Below are positions 127 to 40,201 of a stretch of 57,464 nt of DNA, in pieces (the first letter of the stretch is position 1; each line of letters starts with the position of its first letter). The notes beneath the pieces were generated by a model. The model saw only the letters and a list, made by a program, of their open reading frames with translations, did not search any database and was not told the origin of the DNA. The position numbers and the translations under genes are program-made. The DNA lies in the IMG/VR virus record IMGVR_UViG_3300044272_001842, positions 1 to 57,464 of that record, one strand, 5' to 3'. The stretch is from a virus. Taxonomy: Duplodnaviria; Caudoviricetes.

Positions 127-618
127 CAATCTGAAGTTGACTTGATTATTAAAGCCGCACCAAATATAGGTGTTACACGTGAAGGTCTAAAAACATTAAA
201 CGCTGTATTTACTGCCGCAAATAAGAGAGCTCAGTTAGAAGCACAATACTCAAGTGAATTTTTAAAAGACCCAGCAAATCAAGGTCTTGGAGCAGAAGCA
301 AAATACGCTAAATATAATGAGGGGTTACGTGAAATACGTGCCGCAAATAAAGTAATCACAGAAGAAATGGTCAGTGCAATAGAAGCAGAAGCAAAAGCAA
401 AACCAGTTCCAGAGGGTGGTATAGGTATTAAAAAACCAGACGGTGGTTTTGATGTATTAACTGCAACCCAAGCACAAGTTTTTGAAGTTGCTAAAAATAA
501 TGACTTAAATGACTTTTTAGCAAAATGGCCAGATCTTACTTCTCAATATCCAGAGTTAGCAGATAATGACGCTACGGCAACTTATCAATTATTAAAAGGT
601 TTTACTAGAGTAAACTAA
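1..618 (+). CDS. C-terminal part of a putative internal virion protein starting at 55561 (wraps the contig join)
   Basis: Frame of 94..618 continues the open frame from 55561 through the terminal overlap; about 797 aa in total. Confidence 0.8.
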   Translation, partial: GEDRFNRFFQGDLDNVASGELLQSVGSQFAIMMAEGFPGNLNQSEVDLIIKAAPNIGVTREGLKTLNAVFTAANKRAQLEAQYSSEFLKDPANQGLGAEAKYAKYNEGLREIRAANKVITEEMVSAIEAEAKAKPVPEGGIGIKKPDGGFDVLTATQAQVFEVAKNNDLNDFLAKWPDLTSQYPELADNDATATYQLLKGFTRVN

Positions 619-3600
619 TGGCTATTACTTTTCCAAAAAAAGGTGGGAGTACAACTCCTCAACAAGGTGGTGGTGTTACTTTTCCAAAAACTCAAAGTGC
701 TACACCTGATATAAAATTTACTCCTGGAGGTGCTAGATTTACACCTTTTGGATTAGGAGAGTTTGTTGATCTACAAGATAACACACTTAGTGAAGCTATG
801 CTAGAACAACAAATAGCCGATGATTTGTTGCAACTTGGTTTACCTGATCCTTCAGTAGGTGACTTTGAACCATTGTCTCCTGATATAACTGCCGCTAGAG
901 ATGCTGAAATTTTAGCTAATTATAATACGTTTAAGAATGCTGAGATTGATAGAATAGATTCAGTATTGACAGAAAAACTTGGTGATAAGTGGCAAGGATC
1001 ACGCACCAAAGGTCCAATAGGATTTACTGTTACTGATGGTTTAGTGCGAAGACAAAATGCTGGTACATTTGAAGATAGGCAATTATATTTTAAAAAACAT
1101 CATCCCGAAGGTAAGTACTCTCGCATACCAACAGGAGGTGGAAAATTTATAGAAGTTTATAGTCTTACACCAGACGGTGATGTTTTTACTGTAGATAATG
1201 TAGGGCTTGGTACATTACCTCAAACAACTGGAGCGATTACCGCTAACGTAGGTAATTTCACAACCGTTGGAAGTTTAGTGGGTACTGTTTTTAAACCTTT
1301 CGTAGGCACTGCTGTTGGAGCTTCATTAGGGAATTTAATTGATCAGGCTATTGCTGATGAAACTTCTTTAGATAATTTTGAACTTTTACAAGGTCTTGAT
1401 AAAGGTGATGCGGCTACAATAGGTATAGTAGATGGTATAATAACAAAATTTCTTCCTGTATTAGGAGGTAAACTAAAACAAGGGATCACAGGTGAAACTG
1501 GAGCTTCCATTTTAGCTAGAAAAACTTCAGGTCCACAGGCATTAAAAGCTCAACAAGCCGCAGAAAGATTAGGGTTGCCTTTATTTGGTGCGGCACAATT
1601 AGCGAGTGATAATAAATTGATTCAAGCCGCATTTACTCAAACCGCTGGAACATCTAGTATTCCTGGACGACTGATAAATAAACAACAACGAGCATTGTTT
1701 GAAAGATTAAAACAAAAAGCGCAAAGTGATTTTGACTCTTTTACAGCAGAAGAATTAAGCACCTATACAAAACTTCAACAAGATGAATTAGCAGAGCAAG
1801 TATACCAACTTGTCGCTAATAAATTTGGTGGTACTTTACCAGAAGGTATGACATTAGAGGGTATTGAGCGTGGTATAAGAGATTCAGCTAGTAAACTACA
1901 AGTATCTCATAATGAGCTTATTGATGAGGCCTATAAAAAAGCTTTTAATACTGCTGGTTCAGATAGAGTTGTATTTGATCTTACACCTTTAAAAAGTATA
2001 GCAAGAGATATACAACTTGGAACACAAATAAGAACAACCCCAAAACGAGTAAACAAAGCTGGTAGGGCTATCGATGCACAAGGGAAGTTAATACCAACAC
2101 CTACAACTCGTGCTGAAGGTGAGTTAAGCGGTGAACTTAAAGAAATTACAAATGCATTAATTAATGTGCTTGACCCAAAAGTTTCCAAGCTCGTTGTAAA
2201 AGATCAAGGTAAGAAAAAAAGTTTTGATGCATTAAGTCAGCTGAAAGGTTTGCGTGATAGAGCAAGTAGATTGATGAATGACCAAAATGATTCTAAATCT
2301 GCAAAACTTATTGTCGACGCTATAGATGAAATTTTAGAGAATCCTGTCGGTGGTAGTAAAGAGTTTTTAAAATTTTATGATGAAGCAAAAACATTAGTTA
2401 AACTTAAATCTGATACTCTTAATGCTTCTAATATTGCAAGTATGTTTTCTCGTAAATCTGATGTAATGCCAAACGAGCTTGCAGAAAAATTTTGGACAGG
2501 TCAATTTACTTCTAAAGATTGGGATTATTTTACTAAAATGGCAAAGGGAGCGGCTGGTAATAAACCAGATGCTAAAATAGCCGCACAACAATTAATAGCA
2601 GATGTGCAAGATGGTTTTATAACATGGTTATATCAAAATCCAGCTAAGACACAAGAACGAATACGGACTATTATGGAAGCAGATAGCGATTTATTTGAAA
2701 AAATAGTTCCTAATGTTGGTGACCGTAAAGCCTTAGCGAATATTTCTCAGAAATCTTCTTGGTTACAATCAGATGGTGTACAAGCCGCTATGAAGCGTGA
2801 TATGACAGTGGGTGAAAGAGCGTTAAAAGCAATTGAATCAATGACCGAAAAAGAAATGATTAACTTTATTAATAAAAATGGTGGTATTGATGGTAAAGCC
2901 GCTACGCAAATGCGAGCGGCTGTTTTTAATAGAATATTAGAGAGAGTTTCAGACCTTGATAAACAAGATCTTAACATAGTAGATGTTAAAAAGTTACGTG
3001 ACCAGTTTAATTACCTTTTAAATTTTAATCAACAAGAAGGGTACGGTAGTTTTAAACCTTTGTTCCAATCAGCTACAGTAAAAAATGATATCCCTACTTA
3101 TGATGGGAAAACTAACGAGTACATCAAAGATTTGATGGACAATAGACTTTATGCATCTTTTCTTGCTGGTTTTCAAGTAGATGCGGGAGGTCAAATACAA
3201 GCGGCCGCATCTATAGCTGGTTTAGCAAAATTAGAGTTTCAGGCATTTAAAACTATTTTTACAAATAATATCATGGCTAATATTTTTGCCAGTCCACCTT
3301 CAGTCTCTCAGTTAAAAAAAATACATGGTGGGGGTGCTACAACGGCGACACGAAGGTTTTGGAATAGACGCAAAGGAAATGTATTCGCTAATATTTTGGG
3401 TCAGTTAGGTGATAAATTTAGTAAAGATGTGGAAACACCTAAAGAAGAAGTTGAACGCACAGGTCAACCTCCACAAATGGGAGATGATTTAAGTGAACCC
3501 ACAGCTAGTGTTTTACCTTCAGTTACACCACAGCCCCCCACCTTACCTACACAAACAGCTGGATTAAACATACCTCCGCTACCTTTGGCATCTACTCCCA

Positions 3601-3698
3601 CTCGATCAGGAACAAATTACGATTCATTGTTCCCACGTGATGATATAGGTAGTGCTATCGCAAATAGAAACAGATCAGGAATAATGGCATTAACATAA
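618..3698 (+). CDS. Large putative internal virion / DNA ejection protein
   Basis: 1026 aa, Ala/Gly/Lys-rich and helical in character; last of a run of large genes after the tail genes; function inferred from position. Confidence 0.5.
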   Translation: MAITFPKKGGSTTPQQGGGVTFPKTQSATPDIKFTPGGARFTPFGLGEFVDLQDNTLSEAMLEQQIADDLLQLGLPDPSVGDFEPLSPDITAARDAEILANYNTFKNAEIDRIDSVLTEKLGDKWQGSRTKGPIGFTVTDGLVRRQNAGTFEDRQLYFKKHHPEGKYSRIPTGGGKFIEVYSLTPDGDVFTVDNVGLGTLPQTTGAITANVGNFTTVGSLVGTVFKPFVGTAVGASLGNLIDQAIADETSLDNFELLQGLDKGDAATIGIVDGIITKFLPVLGGKLKQGITGETGASILARKTSGPQALKAQQAAERLGLPLFGAAQLASDNKLIQAAFTQTAGTSSIPGRLINKQQRALFERLKQKAQSDFDSFTAEELSTYTKLQQDELAEQVYQLVANKFGGTLPEGMTLEGIERGIRDSASKLQVSHNELIDEAYKKAFNTAGSDRVVFDLTPLKSIARDIQLGTQIRTTPKRVNKAGRAIDAQGKLIPTPTTRAEGELSGELKEITNALINVLDPKVSKLVVKDQGKKKSFDALSQLKGLRDRASRLMNDQNDSKSAKLIVDAIDEILENPVGGSKEFLKFYDEAKTLVKLKSDTLNASNIASMFSRKSDVMPNELAEKFWTGQFTSKDWDYFTKMAKGAAGNKPDAKIAAQQLIADVQDGFITWLYQNPAKTQERIRTIMEADSDLFEKIVPNVGDRKALANISQKSSWLQSDGVQAAMKRDMTVGERALKAIESMTEKEMINFINKNGGIDGKAATQMRAAVFNRILERVSDLDKQDLNIVDVKKLRDQFNYLLNFNQQEGYGSFKPLFQSATVKNDIPTYDGKTNEYIKDLMDNRLYASFLAGFQVDAGGQIQAAASIAGLAKLEFQAFKTIFTNNIMANIFASPPSVSQLKKIHGGGATTATRRFWNRRKGNVFANILGQLGDKFSKDVETPKEEVERTGQPPQMGDDLSEPTASVLPSVTPQPPTLPTQTAGLNIPPLPLASTPTRSGTNYDSLFPRDDIGSAIANRNRSGIMALT

Positions 3699-6281: not shown

Positions 6282-6602
6282 GTGACAGTCTACATAACAC
6301 AAGAAGTGCGTGGTAGAGATATCACTGATGCAGTTGCCTTTGGCGATTTGCAAATACTTGTTCCTGCAAAAGAGCAAGTAGCATTTAGTACACAACCGAC
6401 AGTGCGTAGGATTGAAAAAGGTTTGCGAAAGTTTAATGACAATGACTTTTTATTATTATCAGGTGATCCTGTATGCATAGGCATAGCCTGTGCTCAGGCG
6501 GCTAAATGTAATAATGGTAAGTTCAAAGTGTTAAAGTGGGACAGGCTGGAAGGCAAGTATTATCCACTAACGGTTGATTTATACCATAGGAGGAGTCTGT
6601 AA
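6282..6602 (+). CDS. Hypothetical phage protein
   Basis: GTG start, first gene of the replication operon, overlaps the next start codon. Confidence 0.7.
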   Translation: MTVYITQEVRGRDITDAVAFGDLQILVPAKEQVAFSTQPTVRRIEKGLRKFNDNDFLLLSGDPVCIGIACAQAAKCNNGKFKVLKWDRLEGKYYPLTVDLYHRRSL

Positions 6603-7150
6603 TGCAGGACTTTGAAAGTGTGGCTAGTGACCTGACTAGCCTAGATAAATCAGGTATAAGCACTATCAGTAACCTATGCAAACAGCAACTTACGTTAGAA
6701 CAACGTATAGCTGACCTTGAACAAGAGCTCAAGGATGCAAAACAAGAGCATCGTAAAGTAGCTGAGGATTTACTTCCTGCCGCTATGGATGAATATGGTG
6801 TTGCTGAACTTAAAATGGATGATGGTTCTAAAATAAACGTATCACCGTTTTATAGTGCGAGTATACCAAAAGCTAAACAGGATGAAGCTTTTAAATGGCT
6901 TACCGAACAGGGGCATGGTTCATTAATAAAAAACCATGTGACTGCGGCTTTTGGTCGTGGCGAGGATAACCTTGCTAAAGACTTGCTTGCCGAGCTTGAT
7001 CAGCGTGGTATGGCAACACAAACAAAGACGTGGGTTGAACCCATGACACTCAAGTCTTTTGTTAAAGAGCAAGTAGAAAAAGGTGAAAACCTACCGTACG
7101 ACTTGCTTGGCATATTCGTGGGGCAGAAAGCTAAAGTAACAAGGAGCTAA
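6602..7150 (+). CDS. Hypothetical replication-module protein with N-terminal coiled coil
   Basis: AGGAGGAG RBS; 182 aa; lies directly before the SSB-like gene. Confidence 0.7.
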   Translation: MQDFESVASDLTSLDKSGISTISNLCKQQLTLEQRIADLEQELKDAKQEHRKVAEDLLPAAMDEYGVAELKMDDGSKINVSPFYSASIPKAKQDEAFKWLTEQGHGSLIKNHVTAAFGRGEDNLAKDLLAELDQRGMATQTKTWVEPMTLKSFVKEQVEKGENLPYDLLGIFVGQKAKVTRS

Positions 7151-7152
7151 AA

Positions 7153-7935
7153 ATGGCAAATGAAGTAACTAAAAAGAGTGCTACAAATGTTGCACTAAAT
7201 AGCTTTGAGGAGTTTGGTTCGCTAGGGTTTGAGGAAACACGTACAGATGATATGGCTGTGCCTTTCCTTAGAATACTTGCACAGCTAAGTCCACAAGTTA
7301 ATAAACGTGAGGGTGCTTACGTTGAAGGAGCAGAGGCAGGAATGGTATTTAATACTGTTTCTAACAAAGTGTATGACGGTGAACAAGGTGTGCTTGTAGT
7401 ACCTTGTTACTATAATCGTAGGTTTGTGGAGTGGGCTCCTAGGGAAAAAGGTGGTGGATATTTTGGTAGCTTCCACCCTGATGACCCCATAACTCAAACT
7501 ACTACTAAAAATGAACGTGGTGAAGATGTGCTACCAAGTGGTAATCTACTCACAAACACGGCTCAGTTTTTTGTAATACTAATTGATGAAGATGGTCCTC
7601 AGCGTTGTTTAATTACAATGAGTAGTACACAATTACGTAAAGCTCGTAAGTGGGTAACGCAAATGAACTCACTTACGTCAGTAGGTAAAAACGGTACTTT
7701 CGTTTTACCTATGATGTCACATAAATACCAACTAACAACAGTAGCAGAATCTAATGATAAAGGTTCTTGGTTTGGTTGGGATATACATAAGGTAGGTATG
7801 CTTGACCTTAGTCAAGAACGTGACCTTTTTGATATGGCAGTAGAGTTTGCAAAGTCTGTAAAAGCTGGAGAAGTAGAGGTAAAAGAAACACCTGAAACTC
7901 CACAAAAACAGGCTGATGACGACTCGCCATTCTAA
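7153..7935 (+). CDS. Putative single-stranded DNA-binding / annealing protein
   Basis: Acidic C-terminal tail ending DDDSPF; NDKGSWFGW; position in the replication module. Confidence 0.55.
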   Translation: MANEVTKKSATNVALNSFEEFGSLGFEETRTDDMAVPFLRILAQLSPQVNKREGAYVEGAEAGMVFNTVSNKVYDGEQGVLVVPCYYNRRFVEWAPREKGGGYFGSFHPDDPITQTTTKNERGEDVLPSGNLLTNTAQFFVILIDEDGPQRCLITMSSTQLRKARKWVTQMNSLTSVGKNGTFVLPMMSHKYQLTTVAESNDKGSWFGWDIHKVGMLDLSQERDLFDMAVEFAKSVKAGEVEVKETPETPQKQADDDSPF

Positions 7936-12659: not shown

Positions 12660-13322
12660 ATGCCACAAAATAAAACATATGTCGTATTAGAAAACGACAA
12701 CACTTCTAGTAGGAATGAAGCTTATAGCTTTTTTAAATTTCCTTCGTTACGTGACACCAAAAAATGCGATGAGATCAATGAGCGTAGTTTAGTGTTTTCT
12801 ACTGTAGAGCAGTTAACAGAACATTATAGTGAAAAAGAGTTAATTTCCATAATGGATGCCACCTATAAAAAAGATGTTAAAGAAGCTTTAGAGCAAGAGT
12901 CATTAAACACTATTCGTAAAATAGGAACACATAGTACGTTCTTTAATTTTGTAGATCTTGTTGCTCGTAATTATAAACCCATCAGTAAGGAGAAACCAAT
13001 GACTGATAAAACTATAGTACATATCGATCAATTTAATAATAAAACGCAAAAACATGAAGCTAGTAAGTCACCTATTAAAAAGTCGCAGTACAATCCTGAT
13101 GCTAAAATACTTGCAGTTAATGGTGAGTCGGGAGTTTATGTAAACCCCTATCGGTCAGGTAGTAATAGATGGCATAACTTTGAAGCCCTTATAAATTCTG
13201 GCACAGTTGGTGAAGCACTAGTGGCTATGAAAAAACTAGTTCCAGGAGGTAATAGTGTAGACATTAAGTTAGCACTACAACGTGGAGCTATAGAGTTGGA
13301 GGAGCCTAGTAATGGAAAATAA
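12660..13322 (+). CDS. Hypothetical protein
   Basis: 220-aa ORF with AGAGGA RBS. Confidence 0.7.
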   Translation: MPQNKTYVVLENDNTSSRNEAYSFFKFPSLRDTKKCDEINERSLVFSTVEQLTEHYSEKELISIMDATYKKDVKEALEQESLNTIRKIGTHSTFFNFVDLVARNYKPISKEKPMTDKTIVHIDQFNNKTQKHEASKSPIKKSQYNPDAKILAVNGESGVYVNPYRSGSNRWHNFEALINSGTVGEALVAMKKLVPGGNSVDIKLALQRGAIELEEPSNGK

Positions 13323-13512
13323 AACAGAAAGTAAAATCAAAGATTGCGTTATATGTGGTGATAAGATAGAGCCACACGTAGATAAATACGGTAATCCATA
13401 TTGGTATGATGGGCATAATGCAGAGCCTGTAGCAGAAGGGAGATGTTGTAATACTTGTAATGAGTATGATGTAATCCCAGCTCGTATAATGGCTATGATA
13501 GGACATCATTAA
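13312..13512 (+). CDS. Small Cys-rich (zinc-binding) protein
   Basis: CVIC...GHNAEPV..GRCCNTCN; GGAGGAG RBS. Confidence 0.7.
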   Translation: MENKTESKIKDCVICGDKIEPHVDKYGNPYWYDGHNAEPVAEGRCCNTCNEYDVIPARIMAMIGHH

Positions 13513-13513
13513 A

Positions 13514-14407
13514 ATGTTAGTAGAAAGTTTTTATAGCTGGATAAACGAACGGCATAATATATATTTACAAAGAGTGGAGGGGCTACCAGCACCGTGGACT
13601 GATGATCCTATATTAAAAGAGTATAAGTTTACTAATCCTTTCCGTGAAAACGATAGGGTAACTGTTTGGATGCGTAAAAATTGGACTGATGTACATAATA
13701 ATGCTCCTCATGGTGAAATTATATTTAATTGTTGTTTATTCCGCATGACTGGCACAAGCGAGTTTGCTGAAGAGCATGGTTGGGTATATGAAAATGAAGG
13801 CTGGGATGCTGAGCGCACTAAAGAAATAATAGAGCGTCGGTTAGCAAAAGGTTTACGAACTTTTACGGGAGCATATATAATTACTAATCAAGGTGTAAAA
13901 GCAAGAAAATCTGAGGTTGTAGTTGATAATTTTCTTAAGCCGATCTGGGAAAATAAGGACAAGGTGGCGGAAGTTGCTTGCCAAACCAATTCGCTCAAAA
14001 AAACCCACGAGGAGATGGCTAGGTATCGAGGGTGGGGAGGAGGAGGTTTTATGTCTTACGAAGTCGTTTCCGACCTCAACTACACACCTGTACTGGACAA
14101 GGCAGAAGACCGTTTTAGTTGGGCAAATGCAGGTCCAGGAGCAAAACGAGGATTAAATAGGATACATGGTAGAGACCTTAAAAAAGTTTTGCCGCAAGAT
14201 CAAGCAAACTTAGAGATGCATCATTTACTTAAATTAGCACCTCAACATATAGCAGACCATGTACCGCTCAAACAAGTAGATATGCGATGCATAGAGCATA
14301 GCTTATGTGAGTGGGATAAATACCAACGAGTATTTCTTAAGCAAGGTAGACCTAGAAGTAGGTTTACATTTACAGAAATTGTAGTGCCAGAAGGGAGAGT
14401 AATATAA
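13514..14407 (+). CDS. aGPT-Pplase1-type (HMUDK helical domain family) DNA base-modification enzyme
   Basis: ERHNIY...PWTDDPILKEYKFTNPFRENDRVT, FTGAYII, HhH-like GWGGGGFMSYEVVSDL, GPGAKRGL, IEHSLCEWDKY. Confidence 0.75.
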   Translation: MLVESFYSWINERHNIYLQRVEGLPAPWTDDPILKEYKFTNPFRENDRVTVWMRKNWTDVHNNAPHGEIIFNCCLFRMTGTSEFAEEHGWVYENEGWDAERTKEIIERRLAKGLRTFTGAYIITNQGVKARKSEVVVDNFLKPIWENKDKVAEVACQTNSLKKTHEEMARYRGWGGGGFMSYEVVSDLNYTPVLDKAEDRFSWANAGPGAKRGLNRIHGRDLKKVLPQDQANLEMHHLLKLAPQHIADHVPLKQVDMRCIEHSLCEWDKYQRVFLKQGRPRSRFTFTEIVVPEGRVI

Positions 14408-15192
14408 TGATACCTATTTATATACCTACTAGGGGAAGAATAAACAAACAAACCACATGGGAAAGTATAGGCTCAAAAGCTAGATCAATGGCTGTGTTAG
14501 TTTGCCCAGATAATGAAGTATCTACACATGAAAGTTATGGCAGGAAGACATTGAGCCGAGGTGATATAACAGGTATAAATAATGCACGACAGTTTATACT
14601 AAAACATGCGTTGGAGAACGAACATGATAAAATTATTATTTTGGATGACGATCTTATATTTGGTCGTCGCATATCTGACGTAGCACCTAGTCTACGTAAA
14701 ACCAAACCAGAAGAAATGCATGAGCTATTTGATATTATGAGTGAACGTTTAGATTCATATGTGCATGTTGGTGTAAGCCCAAGACAAATGAATGATAAAC
14801 ATTTTCCTGCTCGTTGGAAGGAATGTATGAGGCAAAATGCTGTTCATGGTATTCAACCAAAAGTATTAAAAAAGGAACATCTACGTTATGACACAGTAGA
14901 CCTCATGGAAGATTATTATATGACACTCAGTTTATTTAAACTAGGCTATCCTAATATTATGATTACTGACTGGACGTGGGATCAACGTGGTACATCAGGT
15001 GCTGTAGGAGGCTGTAGTTCGTACCGTAATGCTGAACTACAAGAACGTGCAAGTAAACAACTTGAAGCTATGTTTCCAGAACATGTGAAGGCTGTTAAAA
15101 AAGAAACTAAAACAGGTTGGGATAATATGAAAGTACGTTGGGATGTACGTGTACAATGGCGAAAGGCGGCAATGGATGGAAACTGTATCTAA
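14407..15192 (+). CDS. GT-A glycosyltransferase (TET-associated / base J glucosyltransferase-like family)
   Basis: IYIPTRGR N-terminus, IIILDDDL (DxD), MEDYYMTL, GGCS. Confidence 0.75.
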   Translation: MIPIYIPTRGRINKQTTWESIGSKARSMAVLVCPDNEVSTHESYGRKTLSRGDITGINNARQFILKHALENEHDKIIILDDDLIFGRRISDVAPSLRKTKPEEMHELFDIMSERLDSYVHVGVSPRQMNDKHFPARWKECMRQNAVHGIQPKVLKKEHLRYDTVDLMEDYYMTLSLFKLGYPNIMITDWTWDQRGTSGAVGGCSSYRNAELQERASKQLEAMFPEHVKAVKKETKTGWDNMKVRWDVRVQWRKAAMDGNCI

Positions 15193-16177
15193 TAACTATC
15201 AAGACCCACCTAACTCTATACAAGTAGAATTTGTTGAGGGCTGTAATTTAGCTTGTTCTTTTTGTGGTATACAGGCGATACGTGATAATGGTGCTGATGG
15301 TCCGAACGATATACACGGTAAAAAGTCTGGTCCATATAAAAACCTGACTATACAAACAGCCGAAGCTATTTGTGACCAAATCAGGGAGGCTAACTGGAAT
15401 CCTCGTATTGAGTTTGCCATGCACGGTGAGCCAACTATGCACCCTTTCTTCGTTGAGATGGTAGGCTTGTTTAGAAAAAAGTTACCAAAAACCTCTCTTA
15501 TGATGACGAGTAATGGAGGAGGGTTGTTAAAAGATACTGAGGAAACAGTCAATAAACTAATGGACGCAGGAATCAATGTTTTGTTTTTAGATAATTATGA
15601 ACGTATAAAAATAGTTGATAAAATTAAAGAACGGTACAATGGTCCGCACCCTGTTTACGAATACCCTAGTGATCGCCAAGCTAACCCACACCGTAGAAGA
15701 AGACATGATGATCATGATATAGTAGTTGGTATGGATCTTACACTCGCAACAAATGGCACTCATGCACAAGTAAGCAATCATGCTGGATCTGCTTTCCCAC
15801 TAAATTATAACCAATCAGGTAAACGATGTGCAAAACCTTTCCGTGAGTTAAGTATACGTTGGGATGGTAGTGTGGCTGTATGTTGTAACGATTGGATTGG
15901 ATGGTATAAGTGTGGTAATTTACATCAAACAAATTTATCGGATATATGGCAAGGTGATGCTTTCCATGCCGCACGTCAAAAATTGTATCACGGACAACGC
16001 AACTTCGGTCCGTGTAACGGTTGTGACAATGTAACACTTCGTAACGGTTTGTTACCAGACCGTATGGGTAGACAAAGTTTACCTGAGCCAGATGCACAAA
16101 CAGAAGAACATATACAAAAAGCTCTTGGCAATGGCACGTATACACCCAAAGTCAAAAAGCATTTTGACTTTATTTAA
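15176..16177 (+). CDS. Radical SAM enzyme with C-terminal SPASM/twitch domain
   Basis: CNLACSFC (CX3CX2C), HGEPTMHP, TSNG, CAKPF...DGSVAVCCND...GNL...PCNGC; likely start METVSN at 15176. Confidence 0.9.
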   Translation: METVSNNYQDPPNSIQVEFVEGCNLACSFCGIQAIRDNGADGPNDIHGKKSGPYKNLTIQTAEAICDQIREANWNPRIEFAMHGEPTMHPFFVEMVGLFRKKLPKTSLMMTSNGGGLLKDTEETVNKLMDAGINVLFLDNYERIKIVDKIKERYNGPHPVYEYPSDRQANPHRRRRHDDHDIVVGMDLTLATNGTHAQVSNHAGSAFPLNYNQSGKRCAKPFRELSIRWDGSVAVCCNDWIGWYKCGNLHQTNLSDIWQGDAFHAARQKLYHGQRNFGPCNGCDNVTLRNGLLPDRMGRQSLPEPDAQTEEHIQKALGNGTYTPKVKKHFDFI

Positions 16178-16234
16178 ACACCATACAGCCACTAGACGCT
16201 TGCTTTTAGTAGTTGTACACGTAATAATAAACTC

Positions 16235-16250
16235 AGCCGCTCGAGCGGCT
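16235..16250. promoter_or_regulatory. Perfect 16-bp palindrome just downstream of a sigma70-like promoter
   Basis: AGCCGCTCGAGCGGCT; TTGCTT at 16200 and an AT-rich -10-like box upstream. Confidence 0.55.
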
Positions 16251-16278
16251 TTAAAACCACATAGAAAGGCGGTAAAAA

Positions 16279-17283
16279 ATGGCAACATTTAATAGCACTA
16301 TTGTGAGGGGTGCTCATACTATCACAGCTAGAAATGTCAGTGATGCTCTCTGGCTTGCAAAACAAAAATTAGAAAATAGTGGTACAAAGGTTGAAACAAG
16401 AAATGGTAGGGCTATTGAGTTAAGAGAGCCTATAGCTATTGTATATAATCAACCTATGGAGCGAGTATTATTCTACCCTGAACGTGATGCTAACCCTATT
16501 TTCCATTTTATGGAAAGCTTATGGATGTTAGCAGGACGGCATGATGTTGAGTGGATTGCTAAGTTCAACAAACGTATGGCAGAGTATAGTGATAACGGTA
16601 AACAACTTCAAGGTGCGTATGGCTATAGATGGCGCAAATACTTTCATACCGATCAGTTAGTAAAAGTAATTTATAGGCTACGCACATACGAAAATGATAG
16701 ACGAACTGTTTTAACAATGTGGGATGCTGAGGAAGATTTGCGGTTGGATAATGATTGTAAAGATCATCCTTGTAACACTCATATATATTTTAGTATCCGT
16801 GATAGAACATTAGATATGACAGTATGCAATCGTAGTAATGATATGATATGGGGAGCGATGGGTGCTAATGCTGTGCATATGTCAATCTTACAAGAGTATG
16901 TAGCCGCTAGAGTCAATGCCAAAGTAGGTATCTATACTCAGTTTAGTAATAATCTACATGCCTATTTAGACACCCTCAAAACTTTAAAAAATATGCAACC
17001 TGATTATAATTCTTATGGGTCACGTGGTATTTATCCTTCACGCATCGTAACTAGAGCAACTTCCTTTATAGAAGAGCTAGAGTTGTTTATGGAAGACCCC
17101 ATGAAAAAACATCCATATAGCAATAAAATATTTCCAGAGTTAGCTCAACCTATGTGTAGAGTTTGGGAAGCTTGGAAACAAAAAGAAATATTTTTAGCAT
17201 TAGATTTATGTAAAGAAATAGTTCCTGATGATTGGCATATAGCTGTACATGAGTGGTTAGAAAGAAGAGTGAACAATGGATAA
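16279..17283 (+). CDS. Thymidylate-synthase-fold enzyme, probable dUMP hydroxymethylase
   Basis: RDANPIFHFMESLWMLAG, GAYGYRWR, catalytic PCN, RSNDMIWGAMGAN (Asn at the uracil-specificity position), NNLHAY. Confidence 0.82.
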   Translation: MATFNSTIVRGAHTITARNVSDALWLAKQKLENSGTKVETRNGRAIELREPIAIVYNQPMERVLFYPERDANPIFHFMESLWMLAGRHDVEWIAKFNKRMAEYSDNGKQLQGAYGYRWRKYFHTDQLVKVIYRLRTYENDRRTVLTMWDAEEDLRLDNDCKDHPCNTHIYFSIRDRTLDMTVCNRSNDMIWGAMGANAVHMSILQEYVAARVNAKVGIYTQFSNNLHAYLDTLKTLKNMQPDYNSYGSRGIYPSRIVTRATSFIEELELFMEDPMKKHPYSNKIFPELAQPMCRVWEAWKQKEIFLALDLCKEIVPDDWHIAVHEWLERRVNNG

Positions 17284-25542: not shown

Positions 25543-26073
25543 ATGCCGAAAGCAAAAGTCACACATAAAAACTCTTTGGAAGTCGTAGCAAACCCTCGTG
25601 TGGAAACAGGGCTAACTCCTAAACAGGAAAAGTTTGCTATGATTTATGCTACAGAAGACCTAACCCAAACTGAAGCCGCATTACGAGCAGGATACGCTGA
25701 AAGTAATGCCCATGCGATAGCAAGCCGAATGTTAAATGGACGGGACTACCCACAGGTATTAGAAAGAATACGTGTCATTAAAACAGAGTTACAACAAAAG
25801 TTTGAAGTTACTTTTGATGGGCATGTACGGAAACTTGCAGAGATAAGAGACCAAGCTATGCAGAACGGTAACTACTCAGCGGCAGTCACAGCTGAAAAAA
25901 GTAGAGGGCAAGCGGCAGGACTCTACATAGACCGTAAAGAAATACTTACAGGTAAGATAGACCAGATGTCCCGTGAAGAAGTTTTGGTAGAAATAAAACG
26001 TATACAAGAAGAGTTCCCACAGTTACGTGAAGCACTAAGCCCAGCGATTGAAGGCCATGTCAACGAAACCTGA
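25543..26073 (+). CDS. terS: Terminase small subunit
   Basis: LTPKQEKFA..Y......TEAALRAGY..S.A...ASRML HTH; AAVTAE..RG...GLYIDR. Confidence 0.85.
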   Translation: MPKAKVTHKNSLEVVANPRVETGLTPKQEKFAMIYATEDLTQTEAALRAGYAESNAHAIASRMLNGRDYPQVLERIRVIKTELQQKFEVTFDGHVRKLAEIRDQAMQNGNYSAAVTAEKSRGQAAGLYIDRKEILTGKIDQMSREEVLVEIKRIQEEFPQLREALSPAIEGHVNET

Positions 26074-26482: not shown

Positions 26483-26544
26483 GACTTCTGGCACGAGGTC
26501 ATATGAAGTCAGCAAACAAAGTTATCATTATGACAACTTAGGTG

Positions 26545-26574
26545 TTTACATTGATATGGTAACTGTGGTATCGT
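26545..26574 (+). promoter_or_regulatory. Sigma70-like promoter of paralog A
   Basis: TTTACA-18-TATCGT with extended TG, followed by the GTGGCA-TG-TGCCAC hairpin. Confidence 0.55.
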
Positions 26575-26628: not shown

Positions 26629-27084
26629 ATGGCTAAATCAGCTGTTAAAAAAATCGCTACTACCGAAGTTACTTTTCAAGGTATTAAAGATATACCTGAG
26701 GATCGTAAAAAGTTGGGTGTCACTGTTGCTGACATCTTTAAGTTCGTGCAGGAAAATGCTGGTGGTAATCCCAATAATGTTGGTATACGTCCAGTCGCTA
26801 AACTGGTTGACCTTAAACAGGAGCTACCATTTCCTTTTGAAAGTAAGCGTACACTATATGAAGAAGACGGTGCTAAAAAAGCTAGGCTCCGTGGTCTTGT
26901 GGTGTGGCAGTTAATCAACTCTGGTACTAAGCCTATCACCCTTACTGATGTTGACAATGCACATAAGAAAATCAAAGCAAAGAAATATCACGCTTTGTTA
27001 GATGCTCTTAACGGTGGGCAGTCGCCATCAGCCAAAGCAACATGGGGAAATAATTATGTTGAGTTATACGTAATCCCAGCTTAA
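26629..27084 (+). CDS. Hypothetical protein, paralog A
   Basis: AGAAAGGAG RBS; own promoter and terminator; shares collinear motifs with 27454..27978. Confidence 0.85.
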   Translation: MAKSAVKKIATTEVTFQGIKDIPEDRKKLGVTVADIFKFVQENAGGNPNNVGIRPVAKLVDLKQELPFPFESKRTLYEEDGAKKARLRGLVVWQLINSGTKPITLTDVDNAHKKIKAKKYHALLDALNGGQSPSAKATWGNNYVELYVIPA

Positions 27085-27093
27085 CAATCACAA

Positions 27094-27125
27094 GGTGGGT
27101 GGCCGATGGTCACCCATTCTTTTTT
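27094..27125 (+). terminator. Intrinsic terminator after paralog A
   Basis: GGTGGGTGGCC-GAT-GGTCACCCATT followed by T6. Confidence 0.8.
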
Positions 27126-27160
27126 GATGGATGGATGGATTGATGATGAAAGATGATGAT
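27126..27160 (+). repeat. GA-dense GATG/GAT tract, copy 2
   Basis: GATGGATGGATGGATTGATGATGAAAGATGATGAT (10 GA in 35 nt). Confidence 0.9.
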
Positions 27161-27301
27161 TCATATATATGGGCATAGTCACATATATAGTCACCAAATA
27201 AAATCTTTTCTAATGAACTCAAAAGAACTCATACCTATATACAATTTAATATCCGGTGCTATGGTGGTTTTATAACTTAACTATTAACAAGGGAGTTAAT
27301 T

Positions 27302-27364
27302 ATGCTTATGAGCTTTTATTTGTTTAGTGTGATAGTAACAATATTTTTTATTACACTTTTTTAA
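27302..27364 (+). CDS. 20-aa hydrophobic peptide (not in ORF track)
   Basis: MLMSFYLFSVIVTIFFITLF with AAGGGAG RBS. Confidence 0.45.
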   Translation: MLMSFYLFSVIVTIFFITLF

Positions 27365-27372
27365 TTTAGGGG

Positions 27373-27403
27373 TTTACATTAATGTAAATATGTTTATTAT
27401 AAT
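27373..27403 (+). promoter_or_regulatory. Sigma70-like promoter of paralog B with a 16-bp palindrome over the -35 box
   Basis: TTTACATTAATGTAAA palindrome (27373-27388); TATTATAAT -10 region; TGTAGC/GCTACA hairpin at 27407-27424. Confidence 0.65.
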
Positions 27404-27453
27404 AAGTGTAGCAATACCGCTACATTCAACTTTAACCAAAATGGGGTTTAATT

Positions 27454-27978
27454 ATGGTTAATACTTCTAAAAAAGCCGCACTTGCTTTCCAAGGTGCAAA
27501 TGGTATCAAACAGCCTGTAGCCGCTCAAGCTATGGTTGCATTTATCAATGCTAACGGTGGTCAAGCTAACTTAGCTTTATTGCTCAACGCTAATGCCGTT
27601 AAAAACGGTGTTCTGTTTGGTGGTGGCAAGCTATGGTCAGCTATGCAAGTTAGTTCTAAAACTAACGCTATCAGCGCACGTGGTCAAATACTTTGGGCAT
27701 GTGTTAACGGCTTGCCTACAGGTCAAGCGGTCACTAAAGCTAACATTGGTAAGCTTATTAATACTAATGTTCCAACAAGCTTTAAACCTATACCGCTAAC
27801 ACAAATACAGCAAGCTCACGCTGTGTATGGTGCTGGTATTACACATAATACTAGCGTTTCCGCTGGCGGTACAGCTAACCAAAATGCTTTACTTGCTATA
27901 CTTAATGGCGGTTTTGGTATTAGTAACCAAACTGTTAGCACGTATGGTAACGCATACGGCACTATTGTGGCGGTATAA
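27454..27978 (+). CDS. Hypothetical protein, paralog B; no Asp or Glu, gene free of the GA dinucleotide
   Basis: 174-aa ORF with promoter, GGGGT RBS and terminator; similar to 26629..27084. Confidence 0.85.
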   Translation: MVNTSKKAALAFQGANGIKQPVAAQAMVAFINANGGQANLALLLNANAVKNGVLFGGGKLWSAMQVSSKTNAISARGQILWACVNGLPTGQAVTKANIGKLINTNVPTSFKPIPLTQIQQAHAVYGAGITHNTSVSAGGTANQNALLAILNGGFGISNQTVSTYGNAYGTIVAV

Positions 27979-27986
27979 CCCCAACA

Positions 27987-28023
27987 GTTAGCCAAGTGCC
28001 AAAAAGGTACTTGGCTAACCTTT
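27987..28023 (+). terminator. Stem-loop / probable terminator after paralog B
   Basis: GTTAGCCAAGTGCC-AAAAA-GGTACTTGGCTAAC, short T run. Confidence 0.7.
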
Positions 28024-28215
28024 AAAACGCTAGTACGGCTGTAAAAAATGGCAACCCCCCCTCAAATGCGACGAACATGTACAAGCACAGCGCAGTACAC
28101 GGTTTTCCAGAAATCGTTACCACTCAGATAATTTTTGGACATACCCACCCCCCTTTTTTGAAATATGAGTCATAGGTTCATTGCCCTTTGAAAATTTTTA
28201 TATTATTCTGATACT

Positions 28216-28401
28216 ATGAAGGATGATTTAGTTAATTTTGGTGTAAGCCGTTCGAGTAATGGCGAAGTATCTTTATCATTTTATTATACGAATGGTGCAG
28301 AGCGACATTTTGTTTTAGGTGATGATGATATTATATCTTTAATAGCGGCTTTATTAGCGGCACGTAATGAAGAGATGGGTGAATGGCAGACGTACCATTA
28401 A
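28216..28401 (+). CDS. Hypothetical protein
   Basis: 61-aa ORF overlapping the terL start. Confidence 0.5.
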   Translation: MKDDLVNFGVSRSSNGEVSLSFYYTNGAERHFVLGDDDIISLIAALLAARNEEMGEWQTYH

Positions 28402-29852
28402 ACATTCCCGAAGATGTGTTGCGCCAATATGCAATGTTATTAGAGAAGCAGAAAAAACTTATCTCGAGTGATCGCGCACGAGCAGACTTTATGTCGTATA
28501 CTAAAAGTGTATGGCCTGAGTTTATTGAGGGTAAGCACCATAAAATTATGGGCGAGAAGTTTAATGCCTTGTCAAAAGGCAAAATTAAACGGTTGATTGT
28601 GAATATGCCGCCCAGACATACAAAGTCAGAGTTTGCCAGTTATTTATTACCCAGTTGGTTGATGGGACTTAATCCAAAGTTAAAGATAATACAGGCTACG
28701 CATACAGGTGAGTTAGCCGTGCGTTTTGGACGTAAGGTACGTAATTTGATGAACAATGCCGATTACTCTCAGATCTTTCCAGAAGTAAAATTACGGCAAG
28801 ATAGTAGTGCGGCAGGAAGATGGGAGACCCACGCAGGAGGAGAATATTTTGCGGCTGGTGTGGGCGGAGCAATAACAGGACGTGGTGCAGACCTTATGAT
28901 AATTGACGACCCACATTCTGAACAAGATGCATTATCTCCAGCGGCATTAGAAAATGCGTATGAGTGGTATACTAGTGGTCCACGGCAACGACTCCAACCT
29001 GGAGGTGCGATTGTTATTGTGATGACACGTTGGTCAGAAATAGATCTAACGGGAAAATTATTAAAACAGCAATCACGTGATTTGTTAGCAGATCAGTGGG
29101 AAGTAGTTGAGTTTCCAGCTTTAATAGATGATGATAAAGTATTATGGCCGGAGTTTTGGCAGAAAGAAGAATTATTAAAAGTGAAAGCTTCTTTGTCGGT
29201 AGGCAAGTGGGAAGCACAATGGCAACAAAACCCTACATCAGAAACGAGTGCTATACTTAAACGTGATTGGTGGCGGCAGTGGGAAAAAGAAGATATACCA
29301 CCTTTACAGTATGTCATGCAAAGTTATGATACAGCATTTAGTAAACAGACAAATGCTGATTATAGTGCGATAACAACATGGGGTGTTTTTTACCCAGAAG
29401 AAGGTGGTCCACCAAATATTATTTTAGTTGATGCACGACGTGGACGGTGGGACTTTCCAGAACTACGACGTATTGCGTTAGAAGAATATGAGTATTGGGA
29501 TCCAGAATGTGTCCTGATTGAGGCAAAAGCGAGTGGTATGCCCCTTACCCAAGAACTAAGAAGTATGGGTATACCTGTGCAAAATTATAGCCCAAGTAGA
29601 GGTAATGATAAATTTACTCGTGTGAACTCCATTGCGCCATTACTAGAAAGTGGGTTAGTATGGGCTCCAGATACTCGGTGGGCAGAAGAAGTTATTGAAG
29701 AGTGTGCCGCTTTTCCAAGTGGTGAGAATGATGACTTTGTAGATACATGCACACAGGCTCTAAGAAGATTTCGCGAAGGCGGTTTTATACAACACCCAGA
29801 GGATTATGATGACCATGTTGATGCACCCCCAAGACAAGCAGTATATTACTAA
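28383..29852 (+). CDS. terL: Terminase large subunit
   Basis: MPPRHTKS (Walker A), GRGADLMIIDDP (Walker B), VMTRW, SYDTAF, IEAKASG, NDDFVD nuclease motif. Confidence 0.95.
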   Translation: MADVPLNIPEDVLRQYAMLLEKQKKLISSDRARADFMSYTKSVWPEFIEGKHHKIMGEKFNALSKGKIKRLIVNMPPRHTKSEFASYLLPSWLMGLNPKLKIIQATHTGELAVRFGRKVRNLMNNADYSQIFPEVKLRQDSSAAGRWETHAGGEYFAAGVGGAITGRGADLMIIDDPHSEQDALSPAALENAYEWYTSGPRQRLQPGGAIVIVMTRWSEIDLTGKLLKQQSRDLLADQWEVVEFPALIDDDKVLWPEFWQKEELLKVKASLSVGKWEAQWQQNPTSETSAILKRDWWRQWEKEDIPPLQYVMQSYDTAFSKQTNADYSAITTWGVFYPEEGGPPNIILVDARRGRWDFPELRRIALEEYEYWDPECVLIEAKASGMPLTQELRSMGIPVQNYSPSRGNDKFTRVNSIAPLLESGLVWAPDTRWAEEVIEECAAFPSGENDDFVDTCTQALRRFREGGFIQHPEDYDDHVDAPPRQAVYY

Positions 29853-39976: not shown

Positions 39977-40201
39977 ATGGCTATGCATAATAAAAAAGGG
40001 AAGGCAAATGGAGGTCGCAAAAAAATGATGGGTGGCGGCAACATGAAGAAAAAAGGAATGGCTAAAGGCGGTAGAGCTAAAATGATGGGTGGCGGTAATA
40101 TGAAGAAGAAAGGTCGCTCTAAAATGATGGGTGGTGGTAGCATGAATATGCGTAAAAAAGGTATGTCAAAAGGTGGTGCAGTAAGAGGTCCAAATAGTTA
40201 A
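39977..40201 (+). CDS. Low-complexity Lys/Gly/Met protein with KMMGGG repeats
   Basis: Three KMMGGG units; AAGGAG RBS; no acidic residues. Confidence 0.7.
   Translation: MAMHNKKGKANGGRKKMMGGGNMKKKGMAKGGRAKMMGGGNMKKKGRSKMMGGGSMNMRKKGMSKGGAVRGPNS

What the first reader, a model, noticed from the sequence alone, without database searches (positions are those of the whole stretch)
27332..28070. A whole transcription unit with no GA dinucleotide on the coding strand
Seen: between the GA at 27331-27332 and the GA at 28070-28071 I find no GA on the + strand in 739 nt. GA is very common elsewhere on this strand, so several tens would be expected. The gap covers the promoter, leader, the entire 27454..27978 ORF in all three frames, and the terminator. 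As a result the 174-aa protein has no Asp or Glu, and the RBS reads GGGGT where other genes use GGAGG or AGAAAGGAG. TC is frequent on the + strand, so the avoidance is strand-specific: no GA in the mRNA, or equivalently no TC on the template strand. Inference: selection acts on the nucleic acid strongly enough to remodel the protein. Main hypothesis: the phage's bulky thymidine hypermodification is placed at TC sites and blocks host RNA polymerase on the template strand, so this is a pioneer gene readable from fully modified virion DNA. Alternatives are escape from a GA-cleaving endoribonuclease or from a TC-targeting DNA toxin (DarT-type).
Basis: partly seen in the sequence, partly recalled or inferred. 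Interest (0 to 1): 0.95.

Follow-up and report, generated by a model that had tools for sequence, protein, structure and literature searches.

The report
Gene island purged of GA dinucleotides
In a family of uncultured marine phages, one small self-contained gene has been stripped of every GA dinucleotide, usually on both DNA strands, so its protein has no acidic residues; this points to a strong sequence-specific agent acting on that gene's DNA or RNA, most likely the phage's own DNA modification.

Summary
GA is absent from 27332..28070 (739 nt). The next-largest GA gap in the 57.5-kb genome is 113 nt. Synonymous resampling of the 174-aa ORF expects 11.9 GA, and none of 20,000 samples reached 0. 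The 214 nt of non-coding flanks expect 13.4 GA.

Across 57 related metagenomic loci, the homologous gene has 0 GA in 45 and at most 2 in the rest. In 40 of 57 it also has 0 TC, so the usual and probably ancestral state is no GA on either strand over 0.6-1 kb. This window belongs to a minority that regained TC on the coding strand.

The island is a complete unit: a conserved sigma-70-type promoter, a 5' hairpin, a GGGG ribosome-binding site, the ORF and a 3' hairpin. It is a tandem paralog of a compositionally normal upstream unit.

All 5 long relatives tested carry the same thymidine-modification cluster.

My best reading (about 45%) is that TC is the hypermodification context and the island stays an unmodified template for host RNA polymerase. 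This is untested, and two cultured hypermodifying phages lack such islands. The protein's function is unknown.

The parts
27332..28070 (+). Span with no GA on the + strand (the island as seen in this window)
   Evidence: 739-nt gap, next-largest 113; 0 GA against 46.9 expected.
27454..27978 (+). ORF B: a 174-aa protein with no Asp or Glu, of unknown fold and function
   Evidence: 40 homologous clusters, 32 of them with 0 D+E. AlphaFold model pLDDT 79, pTM 0.78. No fold match. No Pfam or PHROG family.
27373..27403 (+). Sigma-70-type promoter: TTTACA preceded by GGGG, then a TATTAT/TATAAT -10 region
   Evidence: 10 of 12 consensus positions, the best in 25-29 kb. Conserved in relatives. Homologous to the promoter of unit A.
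27405..27426 (+). 5'-UTR hairpin at the predicted start of the transcript
   Evidence: -11.2 kcal/mol, z -2.0. A hairpin sits at the same place in relatives and in unit A.
27443..27446 (+). Ribosome-binding site GGGG, where other genes use GGAG-type sites
27987..28019 (+). 3' hairpin with a 14-bp perfect stem (terminator or mRNA stabiliser); the U-tract is weak here and canonical in one relative clade
   Evidence: -24.1 kcal/mol, z -6.0; family-wide hairpins, followed by a T-run in the L039-L058 clade.
27302..27364 (+). Mini-ORF for a 20-aa hydrophobic peptide just upstream of the promoter. It lies inside the GA/TC-free island in relatives; here it holds 2 GA.
   Evidence: a crude detector found it in 20 of 43 loci with enough upstream sequence; it is absent from the L039-L061 clade.
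27253..27426 (+). TC-free stretch over the mini-ORF, promoter and 5' UTR (third-largest TC gap in the genome)
27860..28062 (+). TC-free stretch over the ORF's 3' end and the terminator region (largest TC gap in the genome)
26629..27084 (+). ORF A: 151-aa paralog of B with ordinary composition (10.5% D+E, 19 GA, 22 TC)
   Evidence: BLASTP E 8e-5. hhalign probability 75.8%, E 2.3e-5 over 123 columns. Found upstream of B in 45 of 49 loci with more than 900 nt upstream. GA 19 against 26.5 expected, within the range of other genes.
26543..26574 (+). Promoter-like site of unit A, homologous to the promoter of unit B
27094..27118 (+). Intrinsic terminator after ORF A, which insulates unit B from upstream transcription
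   Evidence: z -3.6.
13514..17283 (+). Putative thymidine-modification cluster: PF18723 (helical domain of 5-hmdU kinases / aGPT-Pplase type) protein, GT-A-like ORF 14407-15192, radical SAM/SPASM enzyme, and a thymidylate-synthase-fold enzyme
   Evidence: Conserved in 5 of 5 long relatives. No homolog of the YuA gp13 P-loop kinase.

Best explanation
The island is a self-contained transcription unit driven by host RNA polymerase. It consists of a sigma-70-type promoter, a 5' hairpin, a GGGG ribosome-binding site, ORF B and a 3' hairpin. In most relatives it also includes a small hydrophobic mini-ORF.

This unit has been purged of the duplex dinucleotide 5'-TC-3'/5'-GA-3'. I infer that TC is the sequence context at which this phage group's post-replicative thymidine modification is placed. 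On that reading the island is the one stretch of the genome that stays free of bulky adducts.

Bulky or charged 5-substituents on the template strand hinder bacterial RNA polymerase. A TC-free template strand (a GA-free mRNA strand) would therefore keep gene B fully transcribable from modified DNA, for example from the incoming virion genome.

The template-strand constraint is kept in every lineage. The constraint on the non-template strand is kept in most lineages but has been lost repeatedly, as it has in this window.

ORF B is a tandem duplicate, promoter included, of the ordinary unit A. The pair may therefore be a modification-sensitive copy and a modification-proof copy of one function.

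Shown: the anatomy, the statistics, the conservation, the paralogy and the co-occurrence with the cluster. Inferred: that TC is the modified context, that the adduct impedes RNA polymerase in vivo, the timing of expression, and any function of the protein.
For: 1. The avoided pair consists of exact reverse complements, and only those two of the 16 dinucleotides are missing. In pooled islands GA and TC are 0, while the other 14 are at 0.69-1.95 times the flank frequency. This is expected for a duplex DNA motif. If two RNA motifs were avoided independently, the second would be the complement of the first about 1 time in 15.

2. The trait is constant across the whole family, which suggests an agent inherited with the phage. 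GA is at most 2 in 57 of 57 loci, and both GA and TC are 0 in 40 of 57. A distant branch, L071, also lacks both. The PF18723 protein, the GT-A-like ORF and the radical SAM enzyme are present in 5 of 5 long relatives.

3. Published work shows thymidine hypermodification placed by dinucleotide context: TG, then TC.

4. In vitro, 5hmU templates are transcribed at about 350% of normal. Treatment with 5-HMUDK cuts this to about 10% of the 5hmU level, and bulky major-groove groups block E. coli RNA polymerase.

5. The asymmetry follows the direction of transcription. All 9 of the 41 distinct sequences that are relaxed kept GA low (0-2) while regaining TC (3-27). None did the reverse. This arose at least 4-5 times.

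6. The island coincides with one promoter-to-terminator unit and is unique in the genome.

7. The six most strongly avoided 6-bp palindromes (each 0-2 observed against 7-14 expected) all lack TC. Four of them contain TG, which argues that TG is not the protected context here (weak).
Against: - There is no direct evidence that this phage modifies T at TC, or modifies it at all. No P-loop 5-hmdU DNA kinase was found: tblastn with YuA gp13 gave no hit, and Walker A motifs occur at only three places in the + strand frames.
- Palindromes that contain TC are not spared. The observed/expected ratio is 0.80 against 0.77 for 6-mers, and TCGA is at 0.46.
- Two cultured hypermodifying phages have no gene-sized dinucleotide gap: YuA and SH-Ab 15599, whose TG context is mapped. 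Phage 15599 also runs an ordinary temporal transcription programme from modified DNA. Hypermodification as such therefore does not demand an island.
- About 70 other genes of this phage are GA-rich on the coding strand and must still be transcribed.
- The model does not by itself explain why most lineages also purge the non-template strand.
- The public runs available were assembled contigs only. They gave no information on modification or expression.
Confidence: 0.45

Rival explanations
1. Escape from an RNase. The B mRNA lacks the cleavage dinucleotides (GA, and in most lineages UC) of a phage- or host-encoded endoribonuclease. Its message therefore survives when other mRNAs, including A's, are degraded.
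For: The island matches a transcription unit, and the strand always kept clean is the mRNA strand. The transcript has a 5' hairpin and a strong 3' hairpin, which are typical features of stable mRNAs. The ribosome-binding site avoids GGAG. Cas13 orthologs have distinct dinucleotide preferences in their collateral cleavage (review passage). That two Cas13b enzymes prefer GA and UC is recalled from the SHERLOCKv2 work and was not seen in any call.
Against: It is an unexplained coincidence that the two avoided RNA dinucleotides are reverse complements. No RNase was recognised in the genome. A host defence is unlikely to be constant across a family this diverged. The island commonly extends 50-290 nt upstream of the conserved -35 element, though that DNA is AT-rich and may be transcribed together with the mini-ORF. 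The Shine-Dalgarno usage and sigma-70-type promoter argue against a Bacteroidota host, where Cas13b is typical (the taxonomic point is recalled).
Confidence: 0.2
2. Escape from DNA damage directed at TC. An enzyme that attacks TC sites cannot damage this one template. Candidates are a TC-specific cytosine deaminase, a DarT-like ADP-ribosyltransferase, a glycosylase or modification-dependent nuclease acting at the modified T, or a TC-specific phage nuclease.
For: It explains avoidance on both strands. It also explains the stricter constraint on the template strand, because lesions there stop RNA polymerase. A TC-cutting single-strand endonuclease exists in phage T4 (endonuclease IV; recalled, not seen in a call).
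Against: Damage elsewhere would still kill the genome, so protecting one 0.7-kb gene helps only if B is an early countermeasure, and that is unsupported. A host defence is not expected to be universal across the family. No such enzyme was recognised in the phage.
Confidence: 0.15
3. An unmodified DNA platform for a DNA-binding step. For example, terminase might recognise the region between terS and terL, and the coding content would be incidental.
For: The island lies between terS and terL. A strongly conserved non-coding element abuts its right edge. Several metagenomic contigs end near the island.
Against: The boundaries follow the gene unit. The relaxation is strand-asymmetric with respect to transcription, which a duplex-binding role does not predict. 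In this window's lineage the ORF body has normal TC. Record ends of long relatives fall at different places relative to the gene order.
Confidence: 0.05
4. A constraint on the protein only. The function requires a protein without acidic residues, and the loss of GA is a by-product.
For: Acid-free composition holds across the family.
Against: GA is also absent from the two other reading frames, from codon junctions and from 214 nt of non-coding flanks. TC is absent too in 40 of 57 loci. Asp and Glu do appear in relaxed lineages.
Confidence: 0.02

Closest known systems
Target-site avoidance in phage genomes (restriction-site or GATC avoidance, e.g. phiX174 with no GATC)
   Same: Both escape a sequence-specific agent by deleting its recognition sequence. 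The phiX174 abstract was seen in the listing.
   Different: Here the motif is only 2 nt. It is removed completely but only within one 0.6-1 kb transcription unit, while staying abundant in the rest of the genome. The cost is a protein with no Asp or Glu.
ACA-less mRNAs that escape the MazF endoribonuclease (recalled; not seen in any call)
   Same: A single message made immune to a short-motif nuclease through synonymous and amino-acid choices.
   Different: No RNase is known here. The complementary dinucleotide is also removed in most relatives, which points to DNA rather than RNA.
Dinucleotide-context thymidine hypermodification in phages M6, ViI, phiW-14 and SH-Ab 15599
   Same: The gene families are shared: a thymidylate-synthase-fold enzyme and a PF18723 protein 33-35% identical to Yua-like and Sonora homologs. 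In those phages the modification is placed by T-then-G or T-then-C context.
   Different: The context inferred here is TC only. No P-loop kinase was found. The cluster adds a GT-A-like ORF and a radical SAM/SPASM enzyme. YuA and 15599 have no motif-free island.
In vitro switching of bacterial transcription by 5hmU phosphorylation or bulky major-groove groups (PMC6457204)
   Same: It gives the proposed mechanism: 5hmU DNA is a good template, and adducts on it are inhibitory.
   Different: That is an artificial, fully substituted template with E. coli RNA polymerase. It provides no natural example and no strand-resolved data.
Morons: autonomous promoter-gene-terminator cassettes inserted between conserved phage genes (recalled concept)
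   Same: It has its own promoter and terminator and sits between terS and terL.
   Different: It is conserved throughout the family rather than sporadic. It is duplicated in tandem with its paralog and carries the dinucleotide purge.

Membership tests
5-hmdU-derived thymidine hypermodification system | dUMP hydroxymethylase (thymidylate-synthase fold) | tested here: inconclusive
   ORF 16279-17283 hits PF00303 at E 4.6e-22. Whether its substrate chemistry is hydroxymethylation or methylation was not tested.
5-hmdU-derived thymidine hypermodification system | P-loop 5-hmdU DNA kinase that activates 5hmU in DNA | tested here: not met
   tblastn with YuA gp13 against the window gave no significant hit. 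Walker A motifs were found only at 9672, 34891 and 43374. A divergent kinase is not excluded.
5-hmdU-derived thymidine hypermodification system | Protein with the PF18723 helical domain (aGPT-Pplase / HMUDK type) | tested here: met
   ORF 13514-14407 hits PF18723 at E 1.7e-50. It is homologous to YuA gp14 at E 1e-46. Present in 5 of 5 long relatives.
5-hmdU-derived thymidine hypermodification system | A modified thymidine present in virion DNA, in a defined sequence context | not testable with these tools
   Only assembled contigs of public runs were available. The indirect palindrome test was inconclusive.
Sigma-70 promoter / intrinsic terminator transcription unit | -35 and -10 hexamers at 16-18 nt spacing, conserved among relatives | tested here: met
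   10 of 12 consensus positions. Conserved across clades. These are consensus matches only; no transcript start has been mapped.
Sigma-70 promoter / intrinsic terminator transcription unit | G+C-rich hairpin followed by a U-tract after the stop codon | tested here: inconclusive
   The hairpin is strong (z -6.0) but the U-tract is weak in this window. One relative clade has a canonical hairpin plus T-run.
Winged-helix / RRE-like fold (for proteins A and B) | Significant structural match to a solved winged-helix domain | tested here: inconclusive
   The best VIA-align Z scores were 3.7 for B and 4.3 for A. Weak winged-helix or RRE-type rows recur for both. Foldseek found nothing at E below 1.
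Nuclease-site-free mRNA (MazF-escape type) | A cognate endoribonuclease whose motif is the one avoided | not testable with these tools
   No RNase family was recognised among the ORFs scanned. The host is unknown: no match in 185,579 species genomes.

The most novel reading that the evidence does not exclude
These phages use their own dinucleotide-specific DNA hypermodification as a built-in layer of transcriptional control. DNA carrying TC becomes a poor template for host RNA polymerase once modified, and a TC-free island is an always-on gene. The tandem pair A (with TC) and B (without TC), which share one promoter design, would then be a modification-gated copy and a modification-proof copy of the same function, giving expression from both parental (modified) and nascent (unmodified) DNA. 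If true, this would be the first natural case of a gene's dinucleotide content, and hence its protein's amino-acid alphabet, being set by a virus's own epigenetic chemistry.
Probability: 0.3. Interest if true: 0.92.

Novelty: new variant of a known kind. Interest (0 to 1): 0.86.

Why it matters
Avoiding a motif to escape a sequence-specific agent is familiar. This case differs in four ways: complete removal of a dinucleotide, usually on both strands; confinement to one transcription unit; maintenance across a deeply diverged phage family; and a constraint strong enough to remove two amino acids from a folded protein. I found no description of anything similar in two full-text searches.

The island gives a precise, testable prediction for the sequence context of an uncharacterised thymidine modification, namely TC and not TG. 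It offers a natural matched pair, units A and B, for measuring how hypermodified DNA is read by RNA polymerase. It also marks protein B, and its family of at least 40 clusters, as something these phages go to great lengths to keep expressed.

If the agent is instead an RNase or a DNA-damaging defence, the island reveals that agent's specificity.

Tried and rejected
Function of the protein:
- Pfam and PHROGs gave nothing for A or B.
- Foldseek against the PDB and BFVD gave nothing at E below 1.
- VIA-align across the PDB representatives gave best Z scores of 3.7 (B) and 4.3 (A), which is below any useful threshold.
- The ESM Atlas gave no usable hit for either protein.

Cultured relatives and host:
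- tblastn of B against 50,697 phage records found no match.
- Megablast of 26-30 kb found no match.
- A pattern scan of one genome for each of 185,579 bacterial and archaeal species found none. The host is therefore unknown.

Generality:
- YuA and SH-Ab 15599 have no gene-sized dinucleotide gap. I therefore dropped the idea that every T-hypermodifying phage carries a motif-free gene. That is n = 2; ViI, M6, phiW-14 and SP10 were not scanned.

Public reads:
- All 23 runs listed were Logan contigs, not raw reads.
- The four runs I laid gave no miscall, depth or expression information for the island.
- The one RNA run covered 28073-28241 and parts of terL and the portal gene, but not the island. 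That is no evidence about its expression.

Other negative or inconclusive tests:
- Palindrome avoidance as a proxy for a protected context was inconclusive.
- GA-dense tracts flanking the island are strong only in the window's clade: 8-10 GA in the densest 40-nt window upstream of the island in the window, L003 and L007. They are not family-wide: in 25 loci the mean of that maximum was 4.2 on the left and 5.2 on the right, against a background of 5.4.
- The window has no second stretch free of both GA and TC. The next longest is 58 nt, against a chance maximum of about 87 nt.
- The state of TC in the island shows no link to the presence of the GT-A-like or radical SAM genes, which are present in all 5 long relatives whatever their state.
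- The conserved element at 28045-28215 matched no Rfam family above threshold and shows no excess folding energy (z 0.01).
- A is only mildly GA-poor (z -2.7), within the range of other genes (lowest z -3.5).

Not consulted: supplementary tables of PMC6449724 and PMC13458397, which list the restriction enzymes tested one by one. They could sharpen the TG-versus-TC evidence.
Full report
**Observation.** The window is a near-complete (98%) 57,464-bp virus record. GA occurs 3650 times on the + strand. Its largest gap is 739 nt (27331 to 28070) and the next-largest is 113 nt. No other dinucleotide shows anything comparable. The span has ordinary base composition (39.8% G+C) yet holds 0 GA against about 47 expected.

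Within ORF 27454..27978 there is no Asp or Glu. None of its 21 Gly codons is GGA, although GGA makes up 25% of Gly codons elsewhere. None of its 18 G-ending codons precedes an A-starting codon. Resampling synonymous codons expects 11.9 GA, and 0 of 20,000 samples reached zero. Even shuffling the ORF's own codons gives zero GA only 0.07% of the time. The 214 nt of non-coding flanks expect 13.4 GA.

**Anatomy.** terS (25543-26073), terL (28383-29852) and the portal gene flank the region. The island is a complete unit:
- a sigma-70-type promoter at 27373-27403, the best consensus match in 25-29 kb;
- a hairpin at the predicted 5' end of the transcript;
- a GGGG ribosome-binding site, whereas 33 of 67 crudely called ORFs use GA-containing sites;
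- ORF B;
- a 14-bp perfect hairpin after the stop codon (z -6).

An intrinsic terminator at 27094-27118 closes the upstream unit. That upstream unit encodes ORF A (26629-27084), a paralog of B. BLASTP gives E 8e-5. A profile-profile comparison gives 75.8% probability and E 2.3e-5 over 123 columns. The promoter and 5' hairpin of A are visibly homologous to those of B. A has ordinary composition: 10.5% Asp+Glu, with 19 GA against 26.5 expected, inside the range of other genes. A 20-codon hydrophobic mini-ORF (27302-27364) sits just upstream of B's promoter.

**The family.** B has 40 homologous clusters at 42-93% identity, and 32 of them have no Asp or Glu. A full profile search of 1.84 billion cluster representatives finds only 23 clusters. 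The distant full-length members also have 0-1 acidic residues.

DNA for 57 related loci from viral contigs shows the following:
- GA in the homolog is 0 in 45 loci, 1 in 10 and 2 in 2.
- TC is 0 in 40 loci, 1 in 5 and 3 or more in 12.
- Both GA and TC are 0 in 40.
- In the 24 both-free loci whose GA and TC gaps are both bounded within the fetched DNA, the stretch is 621-973 nt. It runs from 8-371 nt upstream of the start codon to 36-98 nt past the stop.
- Of the 16 dinucleotides only GA and TC are missing.
- The second-largest GA gaps in those loci are 66-344 nt.
- A still more distant branch (L071) has an 845-nt GA gap and an 886-nt TC gap.
- There is no second such island in the window or in the 20-kb flanks of seven relatives.
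- A lies upstream of B in 45 of 49 loci with enough sequence.
- The promoter, with GGGG before TTTACA, together with the 5' hairpin and the GGGG ribosome-binding site, recurs across clades. One clade keeps a GGAG site.

**Direction of the constraint.** A maximum-likelihood tree of 41 distinct B proteins was built after dropping two truncated loci (L008, L042) and identical duplicates. It puts the both-free state (31 rows) in all major clades. The GA-only state (9 rows, this window among them) sits at tips nested inside them. It needs 5 changes, and well-supported branches force at least 4. No lineage shows the reverse pattern.

The 12 loci with any GA all have TC too, and 11 of them have 8 or more. 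Of the 13 GA listed among distinct sequences, 12 are Asp or Glu codons. In this window TC has returned to the expected level inside the ORF (17 against 18.5). It is still missing over the promoter and 5' UTR and over the 3' end, which hold the third-largest and largest TC gaps of the genome. So the ancestral rule is 'no GA on either strand'. The part that is never given up is the template strand of the gene.

**Link to modification.** The genome encodes the following:
- a thymidylate-synthase-fold enzyme;
- a PF18723 protein (the helical domain of 5-hmdU DNA kinases / aGPT-Pplase type);
- a GT-A-like ORF;
- a radical SAM/SPASM enzyme;
- family A DNA polymerase.

The PF18723 protein, the GT-A-like ORF and the radical SAM enzyme are present in all 5 long relatives tested.

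From the literature I read the following:
- Abstract and two sections of PMC6449724. Restriction sites that resist cutting in M6, ViI and phiW-14 are enriched for TG/TC.
- One section of PMC13458397. The modification in phage 15599 sits mainly at TG and to a lesser extent at TC.
- Passages of PMC6457204. 5hmU templates are transcribed better than normal DNA by E. coli RNA polymerase. Treatment with 5-HMUDK or bulky groups suppresses transcription.

A modification specific to a dinucleotide context, and inhibitory to RNA polymerase, is therefore a documented possibility.

**Evidence against, and what remains open.**
- Nothing here shows what base this phage makes or where it places it.
- The palindrome test does not show that TC-containing sites are spared.
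- YuA and SH-Ab 15599 have no analogous island.
- Phage 15599 transcribes normally from modified DNA.
- The rest of this genome is GA-rich on the coding strand.
- Public runs were contigs only and uninformative.
- The structure models of B (pLDDT 79) and A (pLDDT 69) match nothing convincingly. The protein's function is unknown.

**Weighing the explanations.** Three points favour an agent that acts on DNA and is inherited with the phage, read through transcription:
- the two missing dinucleotides are reverse complements;
- the trait is constant across a deeply diverged family;
- the asymmetry follows the direction of transcription.

I put the 'unmodified template for host RNA polymerase' model at about 0.45. 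Escape from an RNase gets about 0.2, escape from TC-directed DNA damage about 0.15, a DNA-binding platform about 0.05 and a protein-only constraint about 0.02. The rest is unassigned.

**Novelty.** The principle of target-site avoidance is known. Its form here is a whole transcription unit cleared of a dinucleotide on both strands, with an acid-free protein as the result, paired with a normal paralog. I found no description of this in two full-text searches.

Noticed in passing
window 28045-28215: A non-coding element directly upstream of terL is 100% identical among the window, L003 and L004, although the neighbouring coding DNA differs. Its core (a C-run, GAnGA, a hairpin, then TC-rich boxes) is recognisable across the whole family and marks the island's right edge. 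One metatranscriptome contig covers 28073-28241 exactly. There is no Rfam match above threshold and no excess folding energy. It may be a packaging site or a late regulatory site.
   Followed up: partly
window 27120-27160: A GA-dense (GATG)n-like tract with 10 GA in about 35 nt lies just after the terminator of unit A, immediately before the GA-free span. It is conserved in L003, L004 and L007 but not across the family.
   Followed up: partly
window 39977-40201: A small ORF of about 75 aa consists of Lys/Gly/Met-rich repeats. It causes the large TT, CC and AC gaps seen. My crude gene caller missed it. It may be a basic internal or DNA-binding protein.
   Followed up: no
window 618-3698: A 1026-aa ORF, the largest in the early region, has no Pfam or PHROG match.
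   Followed up: no
window, whole genome: Several 6-bp palindromes are absent or nearly absent against 7-14 expected: GTGCAC, TGCGCA, GGTACC, GCTAGC, GCATGC and CCATGG. CCGG and GGCC are at 0.22-0.28 of expectation. This suggests restriction pressure at sites that do not contain TC.
   Followed up: partly
window 12660-14407: The PF18723 protein is homologous to YuA gp14, but no counterpart of the adjacent YuA P-loop kinase gp13 was found. The ORF in that position (12660-13322, 220 aa) has no family match.
   Followed up: partly
L022 and L023 (ends), L025, L035, L061 (starts): Several metagenomic contigs from different samples begin or end within about 150 nt of the island's edges. L022 and L023 end at the same position. 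This could reflect assembly breaks at a variable junction or a physical DNA end.
   Followed up: no
window 6602-7935: Two ORFs match the Pam3 gp33-like and gp34-like families (PF23984, PF23977), which are named after a cyanophage.
   Followed up: no
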